DNA from: a virus
Taxonomy: Duplodnaviria; Heunggongvirae; Uroviricota; Caudoviricetes
Virus record (IMG/VR): IMGVR_UViG_2913192161_000003
Location: 1 to 38,083 of that record
Strand: one strand, 5' to 3'
Length of the DNA stretch: 38,083 bases
Shown one piece after another: positions 3,181 through 10,111 of the stretch (the stretch's first letter is position 1; every line of letters starts with the position of its first letter). A program made the position numbers and the translations under genes. The notes under the pieces are model-generated. The model saw only the letters and a program-made list of their open reading frames with translations. It made no database searches and had not been told where the DNA came from.

Positions 3181-3923
3181 TCAGCCTCCGTCTCTGCGGC
3201 ATTGATAGGTTCGGCGTTGTCGACAGCAAGACTCATGCTATACATGCGTCGCTTCTCAACTGCGCCGATCACCTGCTTCTCTTCTGCGCTCAGCGCCACC
3301 CAGAACTCCTGATACTTCACAGTTCCAAGGCGGGCGGCAGACTCACCTTTAGCGATTAGTTCGGGGCGGCGACTGTCTGATTCATGGCCTGCATGAACTT
3401 CCGCTGTTGTCCCTTCAATAACTCGCTCGGCTTCGTCCTGGTCAAAGATGCCAGCGAACCCAAAGGCCAGACGCGCGCACTGAATCAGTGTCTTGTGGCG
3501 AAGCATGCGGGTAGGGTGGGACTGCCATGGCTGAGTATTGCGTTTACACTCGCCCATGTACTCGGTGACAATGGTCGGGTGCTTACGGTCTTTGCGGTAA
3601 ATCTTGCAGGTGCACGCGCCTTCTTCTTTGTCATAAGAGAATTCCATGCCGTCAAACTGCGGGTGCTCGTTGATAATTCGCGCCCATCCATCCACACCGA
3701 CAACCGGGACAATCCCGCCTTTATCGGGGAATGCGTAAATCTCTTTGGTCCATGGGTTCAGACCGTACTGGTTGGCGACGATCAGCAGGGCTGTAAACTG
3801 CTCGTCCGTGACGTTGCCACCTTTAAACGCTGTATTCTTCAGCGTATTCATCAGGTCTGTACCGGCATCCATGCCGAGGCGTGCGGCCAGTTTCCCGGCC
3901 ATGGTGGAAAGTGCAGTGCTCAT
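3177..3923 (-). CDS. recT: RecT-family single-strand annealing recombinase
   Basis: ORF 3177..3938; start placed at ATG 3923 (MSTALSTMAGK) with GAGGGG RBS 7 nt upstream; RecT-like sequence and position. Confidence 0.8.
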   Translation of the reverse strand: MSTALSTMAGKLAARLGMDAGTDLMNTLKNTAFKGGNVTDEQFTALLIVANQYGLNPWTKEIYAFPDKGGIVPVVGVDGWARIINEHPQFDGMEFSYDKEEGACTCKIYRKDRKHPTIVTEYMGECKRNTQPWQSHPTRMLRHKTLIQCARLAFGFAGIFDQDEAERVIEGTTAEVHAGHESDSRRPELIAKGESAARLGTVKYQEFWVALSAEEKQVIGAVEKRRMYSMSLAVDNAEPINAAETEAE

Positions 3924-4233: not shown

Positions 4234-5205
4234 TCAGTAATGAATTTTCGCGCAGGGGAGCAGGTCATCTTTCAGAGCGGTAAGTACTTCGATAGCCTGT
4301 TCGCGAGTTAAGCTGGTGTGGCTGGTGAGCGCGTTAACGATGTTGGTGCCGACCGTCTTCCGGTGCTTCACGTCTGCTTCTCGCTTCGCCTGCTCATCGG
4401 CTTTGCGTTTCTCTTCCGCCAGGCGAGCATCTTCGGCCTGTTTTGCTTTCAGACGCTCAGCTTCAACCGCCGTGACTTTTTCACGCTCCGCCCTCTCTTC
4501 TGCTTCCTGCTTCTCACGTGCCGCACGCTGTTCCGCTTCAATACGCTGGCGTTCCGCAGCTTCAGCGCGCGCTTTCTCTCCAGCTTCACGGCGCGCCGCC
4601 GCTTCAATCTCTGCCTTGTGCTTCGCTTCTGCATCTCGGCGGGCTTGTTCTGCCGCTTCACGCTTCAGCTGCTCATCACGTTCACGCTGTGCTTGTTCCA
4701 CCAGGCGACGCTGTTCTTCGCGGTCACGGTCGAAAGCATCGTTCATCAGCAGGGCCATCTCGTGGTCTGCTTTAAACTTGGCCGCCAGCTCCTGATCTAA
4801 CTTGATGTTCATCTCCAGCGCTTCGGCGTGCAGCGCGTTCATGGCTTCTTCAGCCTTGATGTGTTCCTGCTCGGCTTCCCATTCTGTGAGTGGGCGGCGG
4901 GTCGCATCGCGCAGCTCGTCACACGCATCAACGAAACGCTTAATCTCGGCCTCAGCAGGACGCACAGCCTCTTTAAGACGCTTCAGGTACTCACGGCCTG
5001 GTTTTTCGATTGCCGTCTTGCTGCGGGATACCTGCGCCGCCAGAGAGGCGATACGGTCACGGCCTTTCTTCGTGGACAGGTCTGGTACTTCGTTTACTGC
5101 CATGCGGATTTGTTCGAGGTAAGCATCTAGGCCGCCCGCTACGTAAAGCACTGGTGCCTGCTCCGGCTTGATTTCGATGACAGTTAAGTCCGTTACTTCG
5201 CTCAT
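4234..5205 (-). CDS. Coiled-coil phage protein (DUF1351-like), E/A/R/K-rich
   Basis: ORF 4234..5319; start placed at ATG 5205 (MSEVTDL) with AGGAGA RBS; long charged helical repeat region; commonly found upstream of recT in enterobacterial prophages (recall). Confidence 0.6.
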   Translation of the reverse strand: MSEVTDLTVIEIKPEQAPVLYVAGGLDAYLEQIRMAVNEVPDLSTKKGRDRIASLAAQVSRSKTAIEKPGREYLKRLKEAVRPAEAEIKRFVDACDELRDATRRPLTEWEAEQEHIKAEEAMNALHAEALEMNIKLDQELAAKFKADHEMALLMNDAFDRDREEQRRLVEQAQRERDEQLKREAAEQARRDAEAKHKAEIEAAARREAGEKARAEAAERQRIEAEQRAAREKQEAEERAEREKVTAVEAERLKAKQAEDARLAEEKRKADEQAKREADVKHRKTVGTNIVNALTSHTSLTREQAIEVLTALKDDLLPCAKIHY

Positions 5206-5275
5206 GGTTTCTCCTGAAATTTGGATGTGCAGATCCCGCCCGCAGAAAGCCAGGCTGATCGGTTGAATAGGGTGG

Positions 5276-5485
5276 TTAGTGCTGGATAGGGTTTCCGCGT
5301 CCGTCGAGAAGGACGTCAATCACGCAATCACTGAGACGGATGATTTCTGCATCGGTGTGCAGGTATACCCATTTTCTCTCCTGGATTACTGCTGAGACGC
5401 GATAGGTGCGGCCTTTGTGCAGTGCCATCATGCCGGGAGTGACGCACTGGCGAATCATTGGAGTCGTTCCGTAGTGAGACATCAT
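5276..5485 (-). CDS. Hypothetical small protein (69 aa)
   Basis: ORF in track; start ATGATG overlaps the stop of the upstream mini-ORF. Confidence 0.4.
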   Translation of the reverse strand: MMSHYGTTPMIRQCVTPGMMALHKGRTYRVSAVIQERKWVYLHTDAEIIRLSDCVIDVLLDGRGNPIQH

Positions 5486-5646
5486 TTCTTACCCTCCACC
5501 TGAGCCAGTAAACCAGCAACATGCATCTGCCAGCGGTTCAGCGTGACTTGCTCTCGCGGGTTGGTGAGCGACGTTAGCCGCCATTCGTTATTGTTAATGG
5601 CGCAGCACTTTACGGTGTACTGCTTGCCGTTGTGGGTGACTGTCAT
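5482..5646 (-). CDS. Small hypothetical protein (54 aa)
   Basis: Hand-translated (MTVTHNGKQYTVKCC...); coupled by ATGA overlaps to both flanking ORFs. Confidence 0.3.
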   Translation of the reverse strand: MTVTHNGKQYTVKCCAINNNEWRLTSLTNPREQVTLNRWQMHVAGLLAQVEGKK

Positions 5647-5772
5647 GAAGCAGCCTTAAGAGCCTTTTCGGCTTCTTTGATACGGGCTGCGGTGCCAGCA
5701 TTCTGAGCAATTTCATTAAGGTGACGAGCGTCTTCCAAAAGCTTAGCGATTATCTCTTTCAGGTCTGTCATA
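5643..5772 (-). CDS. Small hypothetical protein (42 aa), first ORF of the leftward operon
   Basis: Hand-translated (MTDLKEIIAKLLEDARHL...); AGAGGA RBS upstream of ATG at 5772. Confidence 0.3.
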
Positions 5773-6109
5773 AATCCTCTTGGCCTTATCGCGGCGAACG
5801 GAACGGTTAATACAAGACTTCTGCGCTAATGGGCGGTGGATAGCCGCCGTTCATAACTGAGCGTCCTCTGAGAAGCCGCTGAGGTATGAAAAAAGCCGCA
5901 TTGGGCTGCTTGTGTTGAAATCCTTTGTGGTGCGGTGCAGGGATGCTTATCTTCCCAGTTACTGTCTGGCAGCTGCATTTCACCGCACTACAAAACATTC
6001 CAGATTGTTGCCGGGGTATTTATCCATGCCCGGCGCATGGTTTCCTTGCTTTCCACAGACAAAGGAAATTGCTGAATTGGCTATTCCACAGGCAATTAAG
6101 GAATGATTA

Positions 6110-6337
6110 ATGAGCACTAGTACGCTGAAAATTCACTGCCCCGATTGCGGAAGTGAACTCATCAAGAGACCCGACGATTTCGACTTTGATAGTAATTTCG
6201 TGGATGTATCCTGTGCTGATTGCGGGAGGAACATAACGAAGGACGACGTTATCGAACAGGCCACTAAGGCTGTCAAGAAGCAGGTCGATGACATGCTGCG
6301 GAAGACCTTCAAAGGACACGGATGGAAGTTTAAGTAG
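6110..6337 (+). CDS. Small zinc-ribbon protein (CPDCG-N20-CADCG)
   Basis: 75 aa with two CxDCG motifs; AAGGAA RBS 8 nt upstream; opposite in orientation to the early-left operon. Confidence 0.55.
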   Translation: MSTSTLKIHCPDCGSELIKRPDDFDFDSNFVDVSCADCGRNITKDDVIEQATKAVKKQVDDMLRKTFKGHGWKFK

Positions 6338-6799
6338 CTTTATGGCTTCCTCCATTTTCTGAACTGCCTCTCTGGCGTCGAGCGTGAGCATCATCGGCGC
6401 CCTTATAACATCTCCCATATCTCACCTCTCTGTCGTTACCCGCTGATGCGGGAGAAATGCTTTGGTGCTGACTCCCCACAAGGAAGCAGGGAAGGCCGTC
6501 GTCGCCTTGGTGAGCCATTAACTCACCAACTAGCTGATAACCGTCTGCCAGCCCAAAACATTCCCTGTATTGGTCAGCGTCAACTCCCTGCCAGTGTTGC
6601 CCGTTCTCACGCCGTTCTCGCTCTCGCGCGGGGATATTCTCTCACCGACCGGATCGCACCCGGTGATACAGCACGTTTACGTGTAGGGGTCTTAACCGGT
6701 CATTGACGCTGTAAATCTGCATGTTGTTAAAAAGCAGGCGACTTGCTGTCCGCCGCTGGCTAACTTCGCTCAGCTGTCGATGTTTCGTTTCGATAGGCT

Positions 6800-6905
6800 A
6801 ATAATAGCTATGGCGATTATCGTAGTCAATCGCTTAAACGATATTAATGATAGGTAAGGCGATAAATGTGTGATTGATATGGCGATTTTTAATTAAAATT
6901 ATTTA
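6800..6905. promoter_or_regulatory. Operator-like repeat cluster (OL-like) and putative promoter upstream of the 6943 gene
   Basis: Three same-orientation GGCGAT half-sites (about 6811, 6857, 6882) and a near-palindrome ATCGCTTAAACGAT (about 6828-6841), matching the half-site of the OR palindromes at 8057-8097; TTGATA (6874-6879) as a possible -35. Confidence 0.45.
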
Positions 6906-6942
6906 CGTGGTAATCTGTTTTTTTCGGTGAAGGAGTGAATAA

Positions 6943-7317
6943 ATGGAACTTCAAGAGTGGGTTGATAGGTTGCGGTGGCTGAGCCATGAACAGATCGTTC
7001 AAGTTCATTTCGGGCTTCAGGAAGAGATTAAGAAATATTACAAACTGAGGGATGAAGCTAATAATCTTGCGCGCGCTGAGCATCTGTGTGAGCAAATGAT
7101 TGCTCTTTCAGAATTGGCATTTCCGGCGCTGAAGAGGGCTCATGATAAAAGAGTAGAAGAATATGAGTCGTTAACTGGCAACAAGTACCCGAGCGAATTC
7201 TATCCGCCATCACACTATGGATTTTCTCAGTTAGTGGTGATCTTGAAGAAAAGAAAGGATTACAAGCGGATTGAAGAACTTCGTGAAAAGATGATTAAAG
7301 AGGGGTGGAGGTGCTAA
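6943..7317 (+). CDS. Hypothetical helical protein (124 aa), AT-rich cargo gene convergent on cI
   Basis: Strong RBS GAAGGAG upstream of ATG; lower GC than flanks; sits where rexAB lie in lambda but on the opposite strand; followed by hairpin GCCCGG-TAA-CCGGGC (7318-7332). Confidence 0.6.
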   Translation: MELQEWVDRLRWLSHEQIVQVHFGLQEEIKKYYKLRDEANNLARAEHLCEQMIALSELAFPALKRAHDKRVEEYESLTGNKYPSEFYPPSHYGFSQLVVILKKRKDYKRIEELREKMIKEGWRC

Positions 7318-7331
7318 GCCCGGTAACCGGG

Positions 7332-8024
7332 CTATGCGAATCTTTTATAATCTATCGACTGTCGTAAAAGCACTCTTGCCATTACATAGAACTGGTCTTC
7401 ATCACCAGGCTCAACATACCACTTCTCGTAAATAGGGTTATCAGAGATTACAGCCAGGCGGTCACGCTGCATCTGAAGTCGCTTGACGTGTAATGTTTTA
7501 CCAAAAGCAAAGACATAAACGCCATCACTGTCGAATGCAGTGACGCCGATATCAACAAAGATTTGGTCTCCCGGAGAAATTGTTCCATCCATGCTGTCAC
7601 CGCTAACTGTGATGACCTTTATATTTTCAGCTGGGCGGTTACCGAACAGAGAGCGCGCTTGCTCAGATGTGTATTCAATAGCTCTAATGGTTTCAATGAA
7701 ATCGCTGGTAACTAAGGCACCCGGGCCCGCACTGGCTTTAACGTCGAGAACATCCACGCGATAGATCCCACTGTTTGGCTTTCTAACCTTGTATAGTGTA
7801 GGGGATTCATTTGCGCTACCGGCAAACATTTCACCTTCGCCAGTAGACAGCCATTCCGGACGCACACCGAGAACCGATGCAATTTCTACAGTTTTGCGTG
7901 AGCTGCTCGCACCATTCAATAGCTTATTAACGCTGGATTGCGCCATCCCTACAGCTTTTGCGAGCCTGCCCTGCGTATATCCTGCGGAAGACATCGCATG
8001 CGCTAAGCGCTCAGAGAATTCCAT
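7332..8024 (-). CDS. cI: CI-like prophage repressor (HTH + S24 LexA-like peptidase domain)
   Basis: N-terminal HTH (QGRLAKAVGMAQSSVNKLL), C-terminal S24 motifs (SGDSM serine, downstream lysine); divergent from the Cro-like gene; start taken at ATG 8024 (track begins on GTG 8030). Confidence 0.85.
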   Translation of the reverse strand: MEFSERLAHAMSSAGYTQGRLAKAVGMAQSSVNKLLNGASSSRKTVEIASVLGVRPEWLSTGEGEMFAGSANESPTLYKVRKPNSGIYRVDVLDVKASAGPGALVTSDFIETIRAIEYTSEQARSLFGNRPAENIKVITVSGDSMDGTISPGDQIFVDIGVTAFDSDGVYVFAFGKTLHVKRLQMQRDRLAVISDNPIYEKWYVEPGDEDQFYVMARVLLRQSIDYKRFA

Positions 8025-8056
8025 ACACACCCCTTAAAAACACTTTCTTTAATCCT

Positions 8057-8097
8057 ATCGCCTATGCGATTATTTAGCAAAAAATCGCATAGGCGAT
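8057..8097. promoter_or_regulatory. OR-like operators: two 14-bp palindromes ATCGC-N4-GCGAT
   Basis: ATCGCCTATGCGAT (8057-8070) and ATCGCATAGGCGAT (8084-8097), 27 bp centre to centre, in the cI/cro divergent intergenic region. Confidence 0.6.
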
Positions 8098-8125
8098 TGA
8101 CATTCGCCAGGGTGATAATCATAAT
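8097..8125 (+). promoter_or_regulatory. Putative PR promoter for the Cro-like gene
   Basis: -35 TTGACA (8097-8102), 17-bp spacer, -10 CATAAT (8120-8125); the -35 abuts the second operator. Confidence 0.55.
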
Positions 8126-8152
8126 CGCTTAAAATTGATAGTTGAGGTGATT

Positions 8153-8383
8153 ATGAAAAACCCCGCAGTAGAAAAGGCGATTGCCATTGCTGGCAGCCAG
8201 AAAGAGCTGGCGAAACGTTGTGGGAAGGCCCAATCAACGATCTGTGACTGGCTGAATGGCAAGAAGCGAATTTCGCCAGTCCATGTGCTCGACCTTGTTA
8301 ATGCGGTTGATGGGGAGATTAAGGCTTACGAGTTTCGTCCAGATCTCCCAGCAATTTTTCCGCATCCGGGCTCCATCGCCTGA
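8153..8383 (+). CDS. cro: Cro-like HTH regulator
   Basis: ORF 8135..8383; start taken at ATG 8153 (MKNPAVEKAI) after GAGGTG RBS; HTH segment (QKELAKRCGKAQSTICDWLNGKK). Confidence 0.7.
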   Translation: MKNPAVEKAIAIAGSQKELAKRCGKAQSTICDWLNGKKRISPVHVLDLVNAVDGEIKAYEFRPDLPAIFPHPGSIA

Positions 8384-8481
8384 GCCGCGCAACAGCTCAC
8401 CGCTCTTTAACAATCTGGAACCCTATTAAACCGGCTGAGTAATCAGCCAATTATTAACTATTCAACGATAGAGATAGCGAT

Positions 8482-9024
8482 ATGCAATCACTTACGTATC
8501 AACAGAGTACCGGAATACACAGCAGCGTGCTGATAAATCGCGCTCAACCGGAACCGGACAATAATCATGAGTTGATCCGCGCGGCGGTTCGCGGCTGGTC
8601 AGCTGCTATCGACAATCAGGACGTGGTGTCAGCGCTCATCATCAACGAATATCGGGAGCAGGGCGGGACTGCTATCAGCTTCCCGGAAGACATCAGCCGG
8701 GCGCGCCAGAAGCTCTTTCGCTTCCTGGATAACCGCTTCGACTCCGAGCAGTACCGAGAAAACGTGCGGAAACTGACTCCAGCAATCATGGCTGTTCTGC
8801 CGCTGGAATATCGGGAAAAGTTGATGCCGGAAGATAGCCTAATGGCTCGTCTGGTACGCATGGAGAAGGAAACCAGCGAAGCGAAAATTGCCGTCGCAAT
8901 GGATGCGCCACGGCATCAGAAGCTGAAAGAACTGAGCGAGGGGATTGTGGAGATGTACCGCGTTGACCCTGGCTTAACCGGTCCGCTGATGGAAATGGTT
9001 CAAATGATGTTGGGGGTTGTATGA
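8482..9024 (+). CDS. CII-like phage regulatory protein (CP76-like), tentative
   Basis: 180-aa ORF between cro and the replication genes; family by recall and position only. Confidence 0.45.
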   Translation: MQSLTYQQSTGIHSSVLINRAQPEPDNNHELIRAAVRGWSAAIDNQDVVSALIINEYREQGGTAISFPEDISRARQKLFRFLDNRFDSEQYRENVRKLTPAIMAVLPLEYREKLMPEDSLMARLVRMEKETSEAKIAVAMDAPRHQKLKELSEGIVEMYRVDPGLTGPLMEMVQMMLGVV

Positions 9025-9109
9025 CGGTTTCAAAAATGGCGAAAGCCGCTCTGCGCGAACAGAAGCGGCCTTCAGGTGGAATTAACTGGATCAATTCACA
9101 AGAGTAATT

Positions 9110-10111
9110 ATGACAAATATCGCCAGAGTATTCAACTTCCCGGCGCCTGAGCCGGGATACTTCCGGAGCAACAGAATGGAGAACAAAAAGTTCGGCCATT
9201 TCTCTCTGTTCAGAAGTCTCCTTCAAACAGATTGGGCTAAAGATACCGCAAAAATGGCTCTCTGGGTTCGATTGCTGGGAGAGGCTTCCTACCGCGTCAG
9301 AACAGTTGAATTTGCCAATAAGCAATGGGAGCTATCAAATGGTCAACTAGTCACTACAGCGGCCATTCTGGCAAGAAAACTTCGTGATCAGGACGGGAAA
9401 GAAAAGAGTCCACAAGCAGTAACCAGAATGCTTAATTTCTTCATCAAAGAGGGGATGATAAGCACTGAAGGAAACCGGTTTGGAACAGTGATAACCATCA
9501 CAAATTACGCCTCGTATCAGGTCGCTTTACCCGATGAACCTTCCGATGAACCTTCCGACAAAGGAAAAGGCAGTAATGGCGCGGGTTTGAGGTTGGTAGC
9601 CGATGAACCATCCGATAAACCAACCGATGAACAGAACAAGACATTAACTAACAATAATAAAAACAATAAGACCTCTACGTCCGAGAATTCTGACGAATCC
9701 TCTGACAAGCTTGGAAAGAAACCTCCTGTCTTGAAACCTGAAGCGGCAATTCAGAGCGGCACAAAGTGGGGTAACTCAGAAGACCTTCGCTGTGCAGAGT
9801 GGCTCTTCGATGTCGTGCAAAGCATCTCTTCGTCTGCCAGAAAACCGAACTATGCAGCATGGACCAATGATATTCGCCTGATGCGAGAGCGTGACCAGAG
9901 AACTCACAAGGAGATCGCCACACTGTTCAAGTGGGCCTGTGAAGACAAATTCTGGAAGGGAAACGTGCTTTGCCCTTCAACACTGCGTGAGAAGTGGACG
10001 CAGCTCGATATCCAGCGCACGAAACAAATCACTGGTGAAACCAGAACGACAGGTAACAAGCCAGAACTCGACTTCAACAACACTGACTGGGCCTATGAGG
10101 TTATGCGATGA
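9110..10111 (+). CDS. O: Replication initiator (lambda O-like)
   Basis: 333 aa; internal acidic linker encoded by the iteron repeats; immediately followed by, and ATGA-coupled to, the P-like gene. Confidence 0.7.
   Translation: MTNIARVFNFPAPEPGYFRSNRMENKKFGHFSLFRSLLQTDWAKDTAKMALWVRLLGEASYRVRTVEFANKQWELSNGQLVTTAAILARKLRDQDGKEKSPQAVTRMLNFFIKEGMISTEGNRFGTVITITNYASYQVALPDEPSDEPSDKGKGSNGAGLRLVADEPSDKPTDEQNKTLTNNNKNNKTSTSENSDESSDKLGKKPPVLKPEAAIQSGTKWGNSEDLRCAEWLFDVVQSISSSARKPNYAAWTNDIRLMRERDQRTHKEIATLFKWACEDKFWKGNVLCPSTLREKWTQLDIQRTKQITGETRTTGNKPELDFNNTDWAYEVMR
9531..9670. repeat. Putative origin of replication: five 12-bp iterons plus AT-rich tract inside the O-like gene
   Basis: CCGATGAACCTT x2 (9531-9554), CCGATGAACCAT, CCGATAAACCAA, CCGATGAACAGA (9600-9635), then AT-rich 9636-9670. 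Confidence 0.6.

What the first reader, a model, noticed from the sequence alone, without database searches (positions are those of the whole stretch)
6110..6337. Small zinc-ribbon protein oriented against the early-left operon
A 75-aa protein with CPDCG and CADCG motifs 20 residues apart and a good RBS lies on the plus strand, immediately upstream (in transcriptional terms) of the leftward early operon that starts at 5772. Its antisense frame is also open (6107-6418), so either reading could be real. If the plus-strand gene is real it would collide with any leftward PL transcript originating near the operator-like repeats at 6800-6900, which hints at transcriptional interference or an unusual promoter layout.
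Basis: seen in the sequence. Interest (0 to 1): 0.4.

Follow-up and report, generated by a model that had tools for sequence, protein, structure and literature searches.

The report
Two genes nested on opposite strands
The small zinc-binding gene is real, and the longer gene read backwards across the same DNA very probably is too, so this prophage carries a widely conserved pair of protein genes written on opposite strands of one stretch of DNA, which is rare in bacteria and their viruses.

Summary
Both ORFs exist exactly as described: Z (6110-6337, +, 75 aa, CPDCG...CADCG) and ORF-A (6107-6418, -, 103 aa). Their codons are in register, so Z residue n faces ORF-A residue 104-n.

Z is a genuine gene. 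It scores 81 bits against NCBIfam NF047912 (cutoff 37). Its third codon positions vary at 55 of 59 sites, against 29 and 21 at positions 1 and 2. dN/dS is 0.14, against 1.17 for the minus frame.

ORF-A is very probably also a gene:
- It is open in every lineage examined.
- It has a strong SD and ATG, and a conserved N-terminus encoded outside Z (Asp14 in 162 of 171 cluster representatives).
- It runs with the surrounding lytic operon in seven genomic contexts, and shows start/stop overlaps with neighbouring genes in two of them.
- It constrains Z's synonymous sites site-specifically (Fisher p = 7e-9).

The four ORF-A columns opposite Z's cysteines are Ala or Thr in 690 of 692 cells, so the two families coincide from Enterobacterales to Betaproteobacteria.

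In this window the pair replaces the phi80 N gene behind a phi80-type pL/nutL leader. The function is unknown. Reciprocal expression (Z in the lysogen, ORF-A on induction) is inferred, not shown. Databases annotate one strand or the other, never both.

The parts
6110..6337 (+). Z: 75-aa CPxCG-type zinc-ribbon protein with a C-terminal helix (ECs_2282 family)
   Evidence: NCBIfam NF047912.1 at 81.3 bits, cutoff 37. 23 homologous clusters, most of those named by a source called 'ECs_2282 family putative zinc-binding protein'. Variable sites at codon positions 1/2/3 are 29/21/55 of 59, and dN/dS is 0.14. AF2 pLDDT 72.5, with a zinc ribbon followed by helix 44-69.
6098..6103 (+). Shine-Dalgarno sequence of Z (AAGGAA, 6 nt before the ATG)
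   Evidence: Read from the sequence. An AAGGA/AGGGA/GGAG element is kept at this place in all lineages.
6107..6418 (-). ORF-A: 103-aa protein that contains Z on its antisense strand, in register. It is the first ORF of the pL transcript and sits where phi80 has N.
   Evidence: Open in all lineages. Its N-terminal 27 codons lie outside Z and are conserved. 214 clusters in a profile search. Site-specific constraint on Z's synonymous sites. Always co-oriented with its neighbours.
6422..6428 (-). Shine-Dalgarno sequence of ORF-A (GAGGTGA, 3 nt before the ATG at 6418)
   Evidence: A GAGGTG-type SD plus an ATG 8-10 codons before the conserved motif is present in 8 of 9 lambdoid-type lineages listed (Yersinia L021 is the exception).
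6428..6465 (-). Leader with hairpin CCCGC-ATCA-GCGGG, 100% identical to the leader just upstream of the phi80 N start codon
   Evidence: blastn matches 6428-6465 to phi80 L001 3207-3244 at 100%, and phi80 N starts at L001 3197.
6549..6802 (-). phi80-type early leftward leader. By mapping from the phi80 annotation, boxA is at about 6728-6736 (TGCTTTTTAA) and the nutL core at about 6672-6683.
   Evidence: 96.9% identity to phi80 L001 3362-3615. The hairpin plus boxA-like run was picked up at 6754-6727.
6801..6829 (-). pL-like promoter (TTGACT, 17-nt spacer, TATTAT)
   Evidence: The -10 element coincides with the phi80 pL -10 by alignment.
6804..6887 (.). Three operator-like 15-nt repeats (6804-6818, 6850-6864, 6873-6887)
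6083..6092 (+). Conserved nucleotide motif TTCCACAGGC, 18-27 nt upstream of Z's ATG, with a second copy at 6051-6059. It is probably part of Z's 5' control region.
   Evidence: TTC(T/C)CACA(C)AG is kept before Z's SD in most contexts, in Gamma- and Betaproteobacteria, whether or not ORF-A reads through it. It is not evident in L006, L096 or L099.
6012..6040 (+). Two overlapping conserved hairpins between the tL1-like region and Z: A (6012-6016 with 6030-6035) and B (6024-6029 with 6035-6040)
   Evidence: Alignment A5. Helix A is 96.5% paired, with compensatory changes at 2 pairs; helix B is 64.8% paired on this alignment. B is followed by TTTCCTTGCT and was scored as terminator-like on the + strand.
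5768..5899 (-). Region homologous to the phi80 tL1 terminator region, marking the left boundary of the replaced segment
   Evidence: 75.5% identity to phi80 L001 2742-2889. tL1B and tL1A are annotated there.

Best explanation
Window 6107-6418 holds a nested antisense gene pair. Z (+, 75 aa) is a real zinc-binding protein of the ECs_2282 family and is under strong purifying selection. ORF-A (-, 103 aa) is also a translated, conserved protein. Its first 27 codons lie outside Z. Its last 76 codons are the in-register reverse complement of Z.

Where they overlap, Z dominates the sequence constraints. ORF-A is read from Z's wobble positions, which makes most Z-synonymous changes conservative in ORF-A (for example Asp GAY faces Ile/Val, and Lys AAR faces Phe/Leu). 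ORF-A nevertheless filters those wobble positions site by site.

The pair moves as one cassette among phages. It is always inserted so that ORF-A is read with the surrounding lytic operon and Z against it. In this window it has replaced the N gene behind a phi80-type pL/nutL leader.

Inferred, not shown: ORF-A is made from pL after induction, while Z is made when that operon is silent, in the lysogen. Convergent transcription and sense-antisense RNA pairing would then make the two products mutually exclusive. The biochemical roles of both proteins are unknown. Z's zinc ribbon resembles a domain found in candidate anti-phage defence proteins.
For: Evidence that Z is coding:
- NF047912.1 at 81.3 bits against a cutoff of 37, and a PHROG 4852 match.
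- Variable sites at codon positions 1/2/3 are 29/21/55 of 59. Median dN/dS is 0.14 for Z and 1.17 for the minus frame, over 270 diverged pairs.
- tblastn identity is 69-72% for Z against 41-45% for the minus frame in the same phages, and only Z finds distant hits.
- In 173 ORF-A cluster representatives, the four columns opposite Z's Cys codons are Ala or Thr only (171/173, 173/173, 173/173, 173/173). Ala GCA and Thr ACA are the reverse complements of TGC and TGT.

Evidence that ORF-A is coding:
- It is open in all 14 or more diverged lineages. The per-lineage chance under synonymous recoding is 0.09-0.46, with a product of about 1e-7.
- A GAGGTG-type SD and an ATG lie at a fixed distance from the conserved motif L-x-[ILF]-D-[AT]-S. 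That motif is encoded outside Z, and the third positions of the minus frame vary most there (0.41/0.30/0.57; pN/pS 0.55).
- A profile search finds 214 clusters at 50% identity, nearly all 85-120 aa and matched full-length.
- N-terminal columns outside Z are conserved: D14 in 162 of 171, Q/K21 in 161 of 172, L25 in 122, L28 and L29 in 120 each.
- Z's A-ending codons are depleted only where the ORF-A codon would become TGN or TAN: 20 of 325 against 70.9 expected, and at column level 4 of 30 against 22.3. There is no depletion where it would be TCN (34 of 108 against 27.9) or TTN (69 of 162 against 80.7). The control genes cI, cro and orf124 show no depletion.
- Z Gly14 never uses GGG (Pro in ORF-A: 0 of 167), whereas Gly39 does (25 of 161). 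Fisher p = 6.7e-9.
- Z-synonymous differences give more conservative ORF-A replacements than expected (z = 5.1 against background usage, 2.6 against family usage).
- ORF-A is co-oriented with its neighbours in seven contexts: the lambdoid pL operon, a Rac-like kilR-racR gap, a KilA/Rha operon, after a tape-measure gene, two baseplate modules, and two pR operons.
- In L100 its start overlaps the upstream stop by 1 nt, and in L101 by 4 nt.
- In the window its leader and SD region (6428-6465) are 100% identical to those of phi80 N.
Against: - There are no expression data of any kind.
- AF2 gives ORF-A only pLDDT 56.7, so a folded protein is not demonstrated.
- Within the overlap ORF-A's own dN/dS is about 1. 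This is expected under dual coding, but it is not positive evidence.
- If the synonymous recoding test is conditioned on codon blocks (Leu all CTN, Ser mostly AGY), its significance falls to roughly 1e-2 to 1e-3 (my estimate from the counts).
- No sigma-70 promoter for Z passed the scan.
- NCBI's pipeline annotates only Z.
- The lysogen/lytic toggle is pure inference from orientation.
Confidence: 0.75

Rival explanations
1. Only Z is a gene. ORF-A is a shadow ORF that stays open because the in-register antisense frame of a gene rich in Asp, Lys and Glu rarely acquires stops, and gene callers pick it because it is longer and runs with its neighbours.
For: dN/dS of the minus frame is 1.17 in the overlap. 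AF2 pLDDT for ORF-A is 56.7. PGAP calls only Z. The chance of the frame being open is 0.09-0.46 per lineage. No Pfam or NCBIfam family matches ORF-A.
Against: This does not explain several observations:
- The conserved SD, ATG and N-terminal motif encoded outside Z.
- Co-orientation with the host operon in 7 of 7 contexts, with start/stop overlaps.
- Class-specific depletion of Z's A-ending codons.
- The Gly14 versus Gly39 contrast.
Confidence: 0.1
2. ORF-A is translated, but only as a 'ribosome carrier'. The cassette puts about 300 nt of antisense DNA inside an operon, and an ORF with its own SD keeps the transcript covered by ribosomes so that Rho does not terminate it. On this reading the ORF-A polypeptide itself has no function.
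For: ORF-A is open everywhere, has a strong SD, always runs with the operon, and shows translational-coupling overlaps. Sequence conservation in the overlap is weak and confidence in the fold is low.
Against: Stop avoidance alone does not explain the near-invariant Asp14 and the helix-like periodicity in the N-terminus across 173 clusters. Nor does it explain avoidance of Cys, Trp and Tyr codons (20 of 256 non-stop cases against about 60 expected, from the and 63 counts) or of Pro at one specific Gly site.
Confidence: 0.12
3. Only ORF-A is a gene, as annotated in HK639 (HK639_45), ST974-OXA48phi18.2, Edno5, KP12 and 2b LV-2017, and the zinc-ribbon frame is its shadow.
For: GenBank annotators of five phages chose this strand. 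PHROG 29546 is built from those calls. ORF-A is co-oriented with its neighbours.
Against: ORF-A's first codon positions are its most variable (65 of 70 in the overlap), which is the reverse of a coding pattern. Z's dN/dS is 0.14. The Ala/Thr-only columns at exactly the four positions opposite Cys have no explanation from ORF-A alone. Z also has its own conserved SD and ATG, and a curated HMM.
Confidence: 0.02

Closest known systems
NCBIfam NF047912.1 'ECs_2282 family putative zinc-binding protein' (also precomputed Pfam PF26408)
   Same: Z is a full-length member: 81.3 bits against a cutoff of 37, two CxxC pairs, and 60-76 aa.
   Different: The family is only a name; no function is recorded. 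In what I could see, nothing notes that every member lies antisense inside a second conserved ORF.
Antisense overlapping protein-coding genes described in E. coli O157:H7 (e.g. PMC9927249)
   Same: Two protein-coding frames on opposite strands of the same DNA, with one fully embedded in the other.
   Different: Those cases are described as taxonomically restricted, young orphan genes limited to Escherichia/Shigella (PMC9927249). This pair is kept in more than 170 clusters at 50% identity, from Enterobacterales to Betaproteobacteria, and it moves between phage modules as a unit. Here the embedded gene, not the longer one, carries the stronger constraint.
Phage phi80 / lambda N gene slot (first gene of the pL operon, after nutL)
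   Same: ORF-A occupies exactly N's place behind a phi80-type pL, boxA and nutL leader, and has the identical translation-initiation region.
   Different: ORF-A has no sequence similarity to phi80 N and no arginine-rich motif. The same family also sits in tail, baseplate and pR operons, so it is not an N-type antiterminator.
Lar / Ral restriction-alleviation proteins of Rac and lambda (TIGR03655, PF14354)
   Same: Small zinc-ribbon proteins of lambdoid early-left regions. Z shows weak sub-threshold similarity to them.
   Different: The scores are well below the cutoffs: 18.6 against 39.6, and 15.2 against 28.6. The orientation is opposite to pL.
PADLOC defence candidates PDC-M14A, PDC-S64 and HEC-08
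   Same: Z aligns over nearly its whole length to the N-terminal half of PDC-M14A (E = 1.2e-8; residues 6-73 against positions 18-89 of 152).
   Different: Those are longer proteins of untested candidate systems. Z has only the shared domain, and no partner genes of those systems were looked for.
Small CPxCG-type zinc-finger proteins of archaea (e.g. PDB 8q5b, HVO_2753 family)
   Same: The CPxCG knuckle and the small size.
   Different: The similarity is only marginal: E = 0.012 against 8q5b, and below the cutoffs for NF041909 and PF07754.

Membership tests
NCBIfam NF047912.1 ECs_2282_CxxC (Z) | HMM score at or above the curated cutoff | tested here: met
   81.3 bits against a cutoff of 37; residues 7-65 cover profile positions 2-60 of 60.
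NCBIfam NF047912.1 ECs_2282_CxxC (Z) | Two CxxC pairs in a protein of about 60-76 aa | tested here: met
   C10/C13 and C35/C38. All four Cys are kept in every DNA homologue fetched and in 171-173 of 173 inferred cases. One cluster representative (P0009) has Arg at the first Cys.
Antisense overlapping protein-coding gene pair | Both frames intact across diverged relatives | tested here: met
   Both are open in every lineage for which DNA was fetched, including Betaproteobacteria.
Antisense overlapping protein-coding gene pair | Purifying selection attributable to each frame separately | tested here: met
   Z: dN/dS 0.14. ORF-A: a conserved N-terminus outside the overlap and site-specific filtering of Z's synonymous sites. 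A formal overlap-aware codon model was not run.
Antisense overlapping protein-coding gene pair | Own translation signals for each gene | tested here: met
   AAGGA-type SD before Z, and a GAGGTG-type SD before ORF-A in most lineages.
Antisense overlapping protein-coding gene pair | Direct evidence that both products are made (Ribo-seq, proteomics, tagging) | not testable with these tools
   No expression data were available, and the literature search found nothing on this locus.
Lambda/phi80 N-type antiterminator (ORF-A) | Sequence homology to an N protein, or an arginine-rich RNA-binding motif | tested here: not met
   tblastn of phi80 N against the window gave no hit better than E = 0.65. ORF-A's N-terminus, MGDVIRAPMMLTLDAREAV, has no arginine-rich motif.
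Lambda/phi80 N-type antiterminator (ORF-A) | First gene after pL and nutL | tested here: met
   The flanks are homologous to phi80 on both sides of its N gene. The same family also lies in tail, baseplate and pR operons.
Lar family restriction alleviation protein (TIGR03655 / PF14354) (Z) | HMM score at or above the cutoff | tested here: not met
   18.6 against 39.6 and 15.2 against 28.6.
Type I toxin-antitoxin (protein toxin plus non-coding antisense RNA) | A small hydrophobic toxin, with an antisense partner that is a non-coding RNA | tested here: not met
   Z is hydrophilic and Cys4-type. The antisense strand carries a conserved ORF with an SD.
PADLOC PDC-M14 candidate defence system (Z) | Full-length match to PDC-M14A together with the system's partner gene(s) | tested here: inconclusive
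   The match is partial: E = 1.2e-8, covering profile positions 18-89 of 152. Partner genes were not searched for.

The most novel reading that the evidence does not exclude
The pair is an ancient, mobile two-protein switch. Z would be a prophage-expressed zinc-finger factor (defence, exclusion or regulation) made only while the surrounding lytic operon is silent. ORF-A, written on the other strand of the same DNA, would be made only when that operon fires. It would counteract or replace Z, with RNA polymerase collision and sense-antisense RNA pairing enforcing the either/or. The shared DNA would then be the regulatory device itself, which would explain why the two genes have stayed superimposed from Enterobacterales to Betaproteobacteria and why the cassette is always inserted in one orientation.
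Probability: 0.2. Interest if true: 0.85.

Novelty: new variant of a known kind. Interest (0 to 1): 0.7.

Why it matters
Antisense overlapping protein genes in bacteria and phages are few and disputed. The accepted cases are described as young and confined to a genus (PMC9927249).

This is a fully nested pair whose two frames can each be shown to be under selection from sequence alone. It is kept in more than 170 diverged clusters across two classes of Proteobacteria and carried between unrelated phage modules. That makes it an unusually clean test case for two questions: how two proteins can share one DNA segment over long evolutionary times, and whether such sharing serves regulation.

It also exposes a systematic annotation conflict. 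NCBI's pipeline names the zinc-ribbon strand, while several GenBank phage records and PHROG 29546 name the other strand. Neither records both, so one real protein is missing from each annotation.

For lambdoid biology, it shows a phage line in which the N slot behind a phi80 nutL leader is filled by something that is not N.

Tried and rejected
- **Structure searches for Z.** The Z model (pLDDT 72.5) searched against PDB and BFVD gave only generic zinc-ribbon ribosomal proteins, none with E below 0.1. Sequence searches of PDB with both profiles gave nothing significant.
- **AF2 of ORF-A.** Confidence was low (56.7), so no fold search was attempted on it.
- **Family searches for ORF-A.** Pfam, NCBIfam and PADLOC gave nothing. 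Only PHROG 29546 matched, and it is built from the same calls.
- **Rfam.** No known RNA family lies in 4500-9500 apart from a sub-threshold 16S-like fragment. The HK639 putL-like RNA is not homologous to the window's leader; only 6751-6794 matches HK639.
- **ORF-A as an N analogue.** Rejected: no similarity to phi80 N, and the family also occurs in tail and baseplate operons.
- **Z as Lar/Ral.** Rejected: below the cutoffs.
- **A promoter for Z.** The consensus scan found none in 5900-6109. My own scan found only weak, inconsistently placed matches; in the window these are TTGTGG-17-TATCTT about 156 nt upstream of the ATG and a second 7-of-12 match 2 nt upstream.
- **A covarying stem around the TTCNCACAG motif.** This could not be established by eye.
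- **Literature.** Searches for ECs2282, HK639 and antisense overlapping genes in prophages found nothing on this locus.
- **Naive product of 'frame open' probabilities (1e-7).** I consider this overstated, because Leu and Ser codon blocks are not freely interchangeable. The class-specific and site-specific tests replace it.

Full report
**1. What is in the window.**
The window is the immunity region of a lambdoid prophage. It has a cI-type repressor (7332-8030, -; Peptidase_S24 plus HTH), a Cro/YdaS-type gene (8135-8383, +), and three operator-like repeats (6804-6887). The repeats overlap a minus-strand promoter, TTGACT-17-TATTAT, at 6829-6801.

Z is 6110-6337 (+), 75 aa, with CPDCG and CADCG motifs and an AAGGAA Shine-Dalgarno at 6098-6103. 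ORF-A is 6107-6418 (-), 103 aa. ORF-A's stop codon abuts Z's ATG, so Z lies wholly inside ORF-A. The codons are in register: + position 1 faces - position 3, second positions face each other, and Z residue n faces ORF-A residue 104-n.

**2. Genomic setting.**
Phage phi80 matches the window on both sides of the pair.
- 6549-6802 is 97% identical to the phi80 pL / boxA / nutL leader.
- 6428-6465 is 100% identical to the 38 nt just upstream of the phi80 N start codon.
- 5768-5899 matches the phi80 tL1 terminator region.

The N gene itself is replaced by window ~5900-6427, and no N homologue exists anywhere in the window. ORF-A is therefore the first ORF of the pL transcript, with N's own ribosome-binding region. 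The SD is GAGGTGA at 6428-6422, 3 nt before the ATG. The closest relative fetched is a prophage of Escherichia sp. E1V33, with Z 96% identical in protein and 6401-6850 99% identical in DNA.

**3. Z is a real gene.**
- It scores 81.3 bits against NCBIfam NF047912.1 'ECs_2282 family putative zinc-binding protein', whose cutoff is 37.
- A search of 5.8 billion proteins returns 23 clusters. All those with a taxon name are Enterobacterales, and most of the named ones carry that family name.
- tblastn against phages gives 69-72% identity for Z but only 41-45% for the minus frame in the same records. Only Z reaches distant phages: Edno5, KP12 and 2b LV-2017.
- On 29 distinct sequences from 92 fetched loci, Z's codon positions 1/2/3 are variable at 29/21/55 of 59 sites.
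- Median dN/dS over 270 pairs more than 8% diverged is 0.14 for Z and 1.17 for the minus frame.

AF2 gives a zinc ribbon followed by a helix at residues 44-69 (pLDDT 72.5). No structural or sequence neighbour of known function was found. The one functional hint is similarity to domains of candidate anti-phage defence proteins in PADLOC (PDC-M14A, E = 1.2e-8).

**4. The minus ORF is not just a shadow.**
GenBank annotators of HK639 (HK639_45), ST974-OXA48phi18.2, Edno5, KP12 and 2b LV-2017 all called the minus ORF. NCBI's pipeline calls only Z (E. coli R1). Several independent observations indicate that ORF-A is itself translated and selected.

(a) *Open frame.* It is open in every lineage for which I obtained DNA. 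These include distant members found through an ORF-A profile, from Brenneria and two metagenomic phages, and two prophages from a remote part of the family, one of them (L100) in a cluster that includes a Curvibacter (Betaproteobacteria) protein. Under synonymous recoding of Z the per-lineage chance of this is 0.09-0.46.

(b) *Translation start and N-terminus.* In 8 of the 9 lambdoid-type lineages listed, an ATG preceded by a GAGGTG-type SD lies 8-10 codons before a conserved peptide motif, L-x-[ILF]-D-[AT]-S-x-x-x-x-[QK]-[ILV]-x-E-L. This motif is encoded beyond Z's stop codon. In that stretch the third positions of the minus frame vary most (0.41/0.30/0.57; pN/pS 0.55).

(c) *Family size and the cysteine test.* A profile search of 1.84 billion cluster representatives finds 214 clusters with E ≤ 1e-3, of which 71 have E ≤ 1e-10. 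Nearly all are 85-120 aa and matched end to end.
- In an alignment of 173 of them, the N-terminal columns outside Z are conserved: Asp14 in 162 of 171, Gln/Lys21 in 161 of 172, Leu25 in 122, Leu28 and Leu29 in 120 each.
- In the same alignment, the four columns opposite Z's cysteines hold only Ala or Thr: 171/173, 173/173, 173/173, 173/173.
- Ala GCA and Thr ACA are exactly the reverse complements of TGC and TGT, so Z's four cysteines are present throughout the ORF-A family. The two families coincide.

(d) *Constraint on Z's synonymous sites.* These sites carry the imprint of the ORF-A frame.
- A-ending codons are depleted only in families where the ORF-A codon would become TGN or TAN (Cys, Trp, Tyr, stop): 20 of 325 against 70.9 expected. 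Only 4 of 30 alignment columns ever show one, against 22.3 expected.
- They are not depleted where the ORF-A codon would be Ser (34 of 108 against 27.9) or Phe/Leu (69 of 162 against 80.7).
- cI, cro and the 124-aa ORF of the same window show no such depletion.
- The constraint is site-specific. Z's Gly14 never uses GGG, which would put Pro into ORF-A (0 of 22 distinct DNAs; 0 of 167 proteins). Gly39 uses it freely (4 of 22; 25 of 161). Fisher p = 6.7e-9.
- Opposite Z's Val47, ORF-A has Asp in 122 and Asn in 31, but Tyr in 4 and His in 3.
- Z-synonymous differences produce more conservative ORF-A replacements than expected (mean BLOSUM62 0.64 against 0.27, z = 5.1; against family-pooled usage 0.45, z = 2.6).

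(e) *Orientation and coupling.* ORF-A runs with the surrounding operon, and Z against it, in all seven kinds of context seen:
- lambdoid pL operons (window, HK639, Klebsiella phages, Edno5);
- a Rac-like kilR-racR gap;
- a KilA/Rha operon (KP12);
- after a tape-measure gene (2b LV-2017);
- two baseplate modules, just before the sheath-initiator gene;
- two pR operons, just after cro.

In the two pR cases ORF-A's start overlaps the upstream stop (TGATG, ATGA). In L100 its end also overlaps the next gene. This is the usual sign of translational coupling.

**5. What argues the other way.**
- Inside the overlap ORF-A's own dN/dS is about 1, and its first codon positions are its most variable. This is expected when the partner frame dominates, because ORF-A's 'synonymous' sites are Z's first positions. 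It still means ORF-A's case rests on the indirect tests above.
- AF2 gives ORF-A only pLDDT 56.7.
- There are no expression data, and I found no literature on the locus.

I put dual coding at about 0.75. The main rivals are 'Z only' at 0.10 and 'ORF-A translated only to keep ribosomes on the operon transcript' at 0.12. 'ORF-A only' is contradicted by the substitution pattern.

**6. How it probably works.**
*Shown:* the anatomy, and the selection on both frames.

*Follows from the genetic code:* Z is rich in Asp, Lys, Glu, Asn and Gln. The wobble changes of these codons become Ile/Val, Phe/Leu or Leu/Leu changes in ORF-A. This in-register antisense arrangement therefore lets Z drift synonymously while ORF-A keeps its hydrophobic pattern.

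*Inferred:* ORF-A is always read with an operon that is silent in a lysogen (pL, pR, tail, baseplate), and Z always against it. The simplest model is therefore reciprocal expression: Z in the lysogen, ORF-A after induction. Polymerase collision and sense-antisense RNA pairing would enforce the exclusion.

Z's promoter was not found. A conserved motif, TTC(T/C)CACA(C)AG, lies 18-27 nt upstream of Z's ATG in the window and at a similar distance in most other contexts (it is not evident in L006, L096 or L099), with a tandem second copy in the lambdoid group (window 6083-6092 and 6051-6059). It is conserved whether or not ORF-A reads through it, so it acts at the nucleic-acid level and probably belongs to Z's control region.

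**7. Comparison with what is known.**
- Z is a member of a curated but functionally blank family.
- It is not a Lar/Ral protein; the scores are below the cutoffs.
- ORF-A is not an N protein.
- The arrangement belongs to the known but rare class of antisense overlapping protein genes. Published bacterial examples are described as taxonomically restricted orphans (PMC9927249). This pair is old, widespread and mobile, and the embedded gene is the more constrained one.

I therefore rate it a new variant of a known kind. I did not find any record that annotates both genes.

**8. Verdict.**
The real finding is larger than the one reported: a conserved nested antisense gene pair that, in this prophage, fills the N slot of a phi80-type early-left operon.

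Noticed in passing
window 6495-6541 (-): A 47-nt stretch of the pL leader matches bacterial 16S rRNA positions 237-283 (the helix 11 region) in Rfam at 34.1 bits, E = 2.6e-7, which is below the gathering score. It lies in a segment (6466-6548) that phi80 lacks. In an HK639-like contig (L050) it is present on the other side of the gene pair (window 6428-6572 is 92% identical to L050 2746-2893). Its function is unknown.
   Followed up: partly
window 5900-6802, compared with phi80 (L001): The prophage keeps a phi80-type pL, boxA and nutL leader at 97% identity, and the exact N ribosome-binding region, but it has no N gene anywhere in the 38 kb. How, or whether, its early-left operon is antiterminated is open.
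   Followed up: partly
window 6428-6465; also phi80 L001 3207-3244 and three further places in the blastn output (2846-2874, 2617-2640, 3182-3397): A short element with the hairpin CCCGC-TGAT-GCGGG followed by GAGAAATGCTTTG recurs in intergenic gaps of related early-left operons. It lies upstream of ORF-A in the window and downstream of it in HK639-like loci.
   Followed up: partly
window 6012-6040: Two overlapping conserved hairpins lie between the tL1-like region and Z. Helix A is 96.5% paired across 12 lineages, with compensatory changes at two pairs. Helix B is followed by TTTCCTTGCT. They share bases, so they are probably alternative structures, like an attenuator. G-U pairs favour the + strand.
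   Followed up: partly
window 6051-6059 and 6083-6092: Tandem TTCCACAG motifs lie just upstream of Z's Shine-Dalgarno. A single copy of the related motif GTTCTCACACA(G/A)CC precedes Z even in Brenneria and in the two remote prophages L100 and L101. It is a candidate binding site or promoter element of unknown kind.
   Followed up: partly
public annotation of homologues (HK639 HK639_45, QBP28601.1, Edno5_0050, KP12_367, ARB15630.1, versus WP_157911358.1 in E. coli R1): Databases disagree on which strand is the gene. Five GenBank phage records and PHROG 29546 call the minus ORF, while NCBI's pipeline calls the zinc-ribbon ORF. None calls both.
   Followed up: yes
protein P0009 (Klebsiella quasipneumoniae cluster, 122 members): The cluster representative has Arg in place of Z's first Cys (VARPDCGS). 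If the codon is CGC (the DNA was not fetched), the change would be silent in ORF-A (GCA to GCG, Ala). This may be a lineage where Z is decaying while ORF-A is untouched.
   Followed up: no
proteins P0096, P0099, P0187, P0194: Some called ORF-A products switch midway into another antisense frame of Z (tails such as ...SLPQSGQ...). This points to frameshifts or sequencing errors in those contigs.
   Followed up: no
window 6943-7317 (+): A 124-aa ORF lies between the pL operators and cI, where lambda has rexAB. It is preceded by a weak + strand promoter-like site (6874-6902). It has no match in Pfam, NCBIfam or PADLOC.
   Followed up: partly
L007 (Klebsiella phage 2b LV-2017) 2486-2953: Here the annotated minus ORF is a fusion. 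Its first 60 aa match PHROG 21096 (E = 5e-35) and the rest is ORF-A. An internal ATG with a GGAGG SD at 2887 could start ORF-A on its own.
   Followed up: partly
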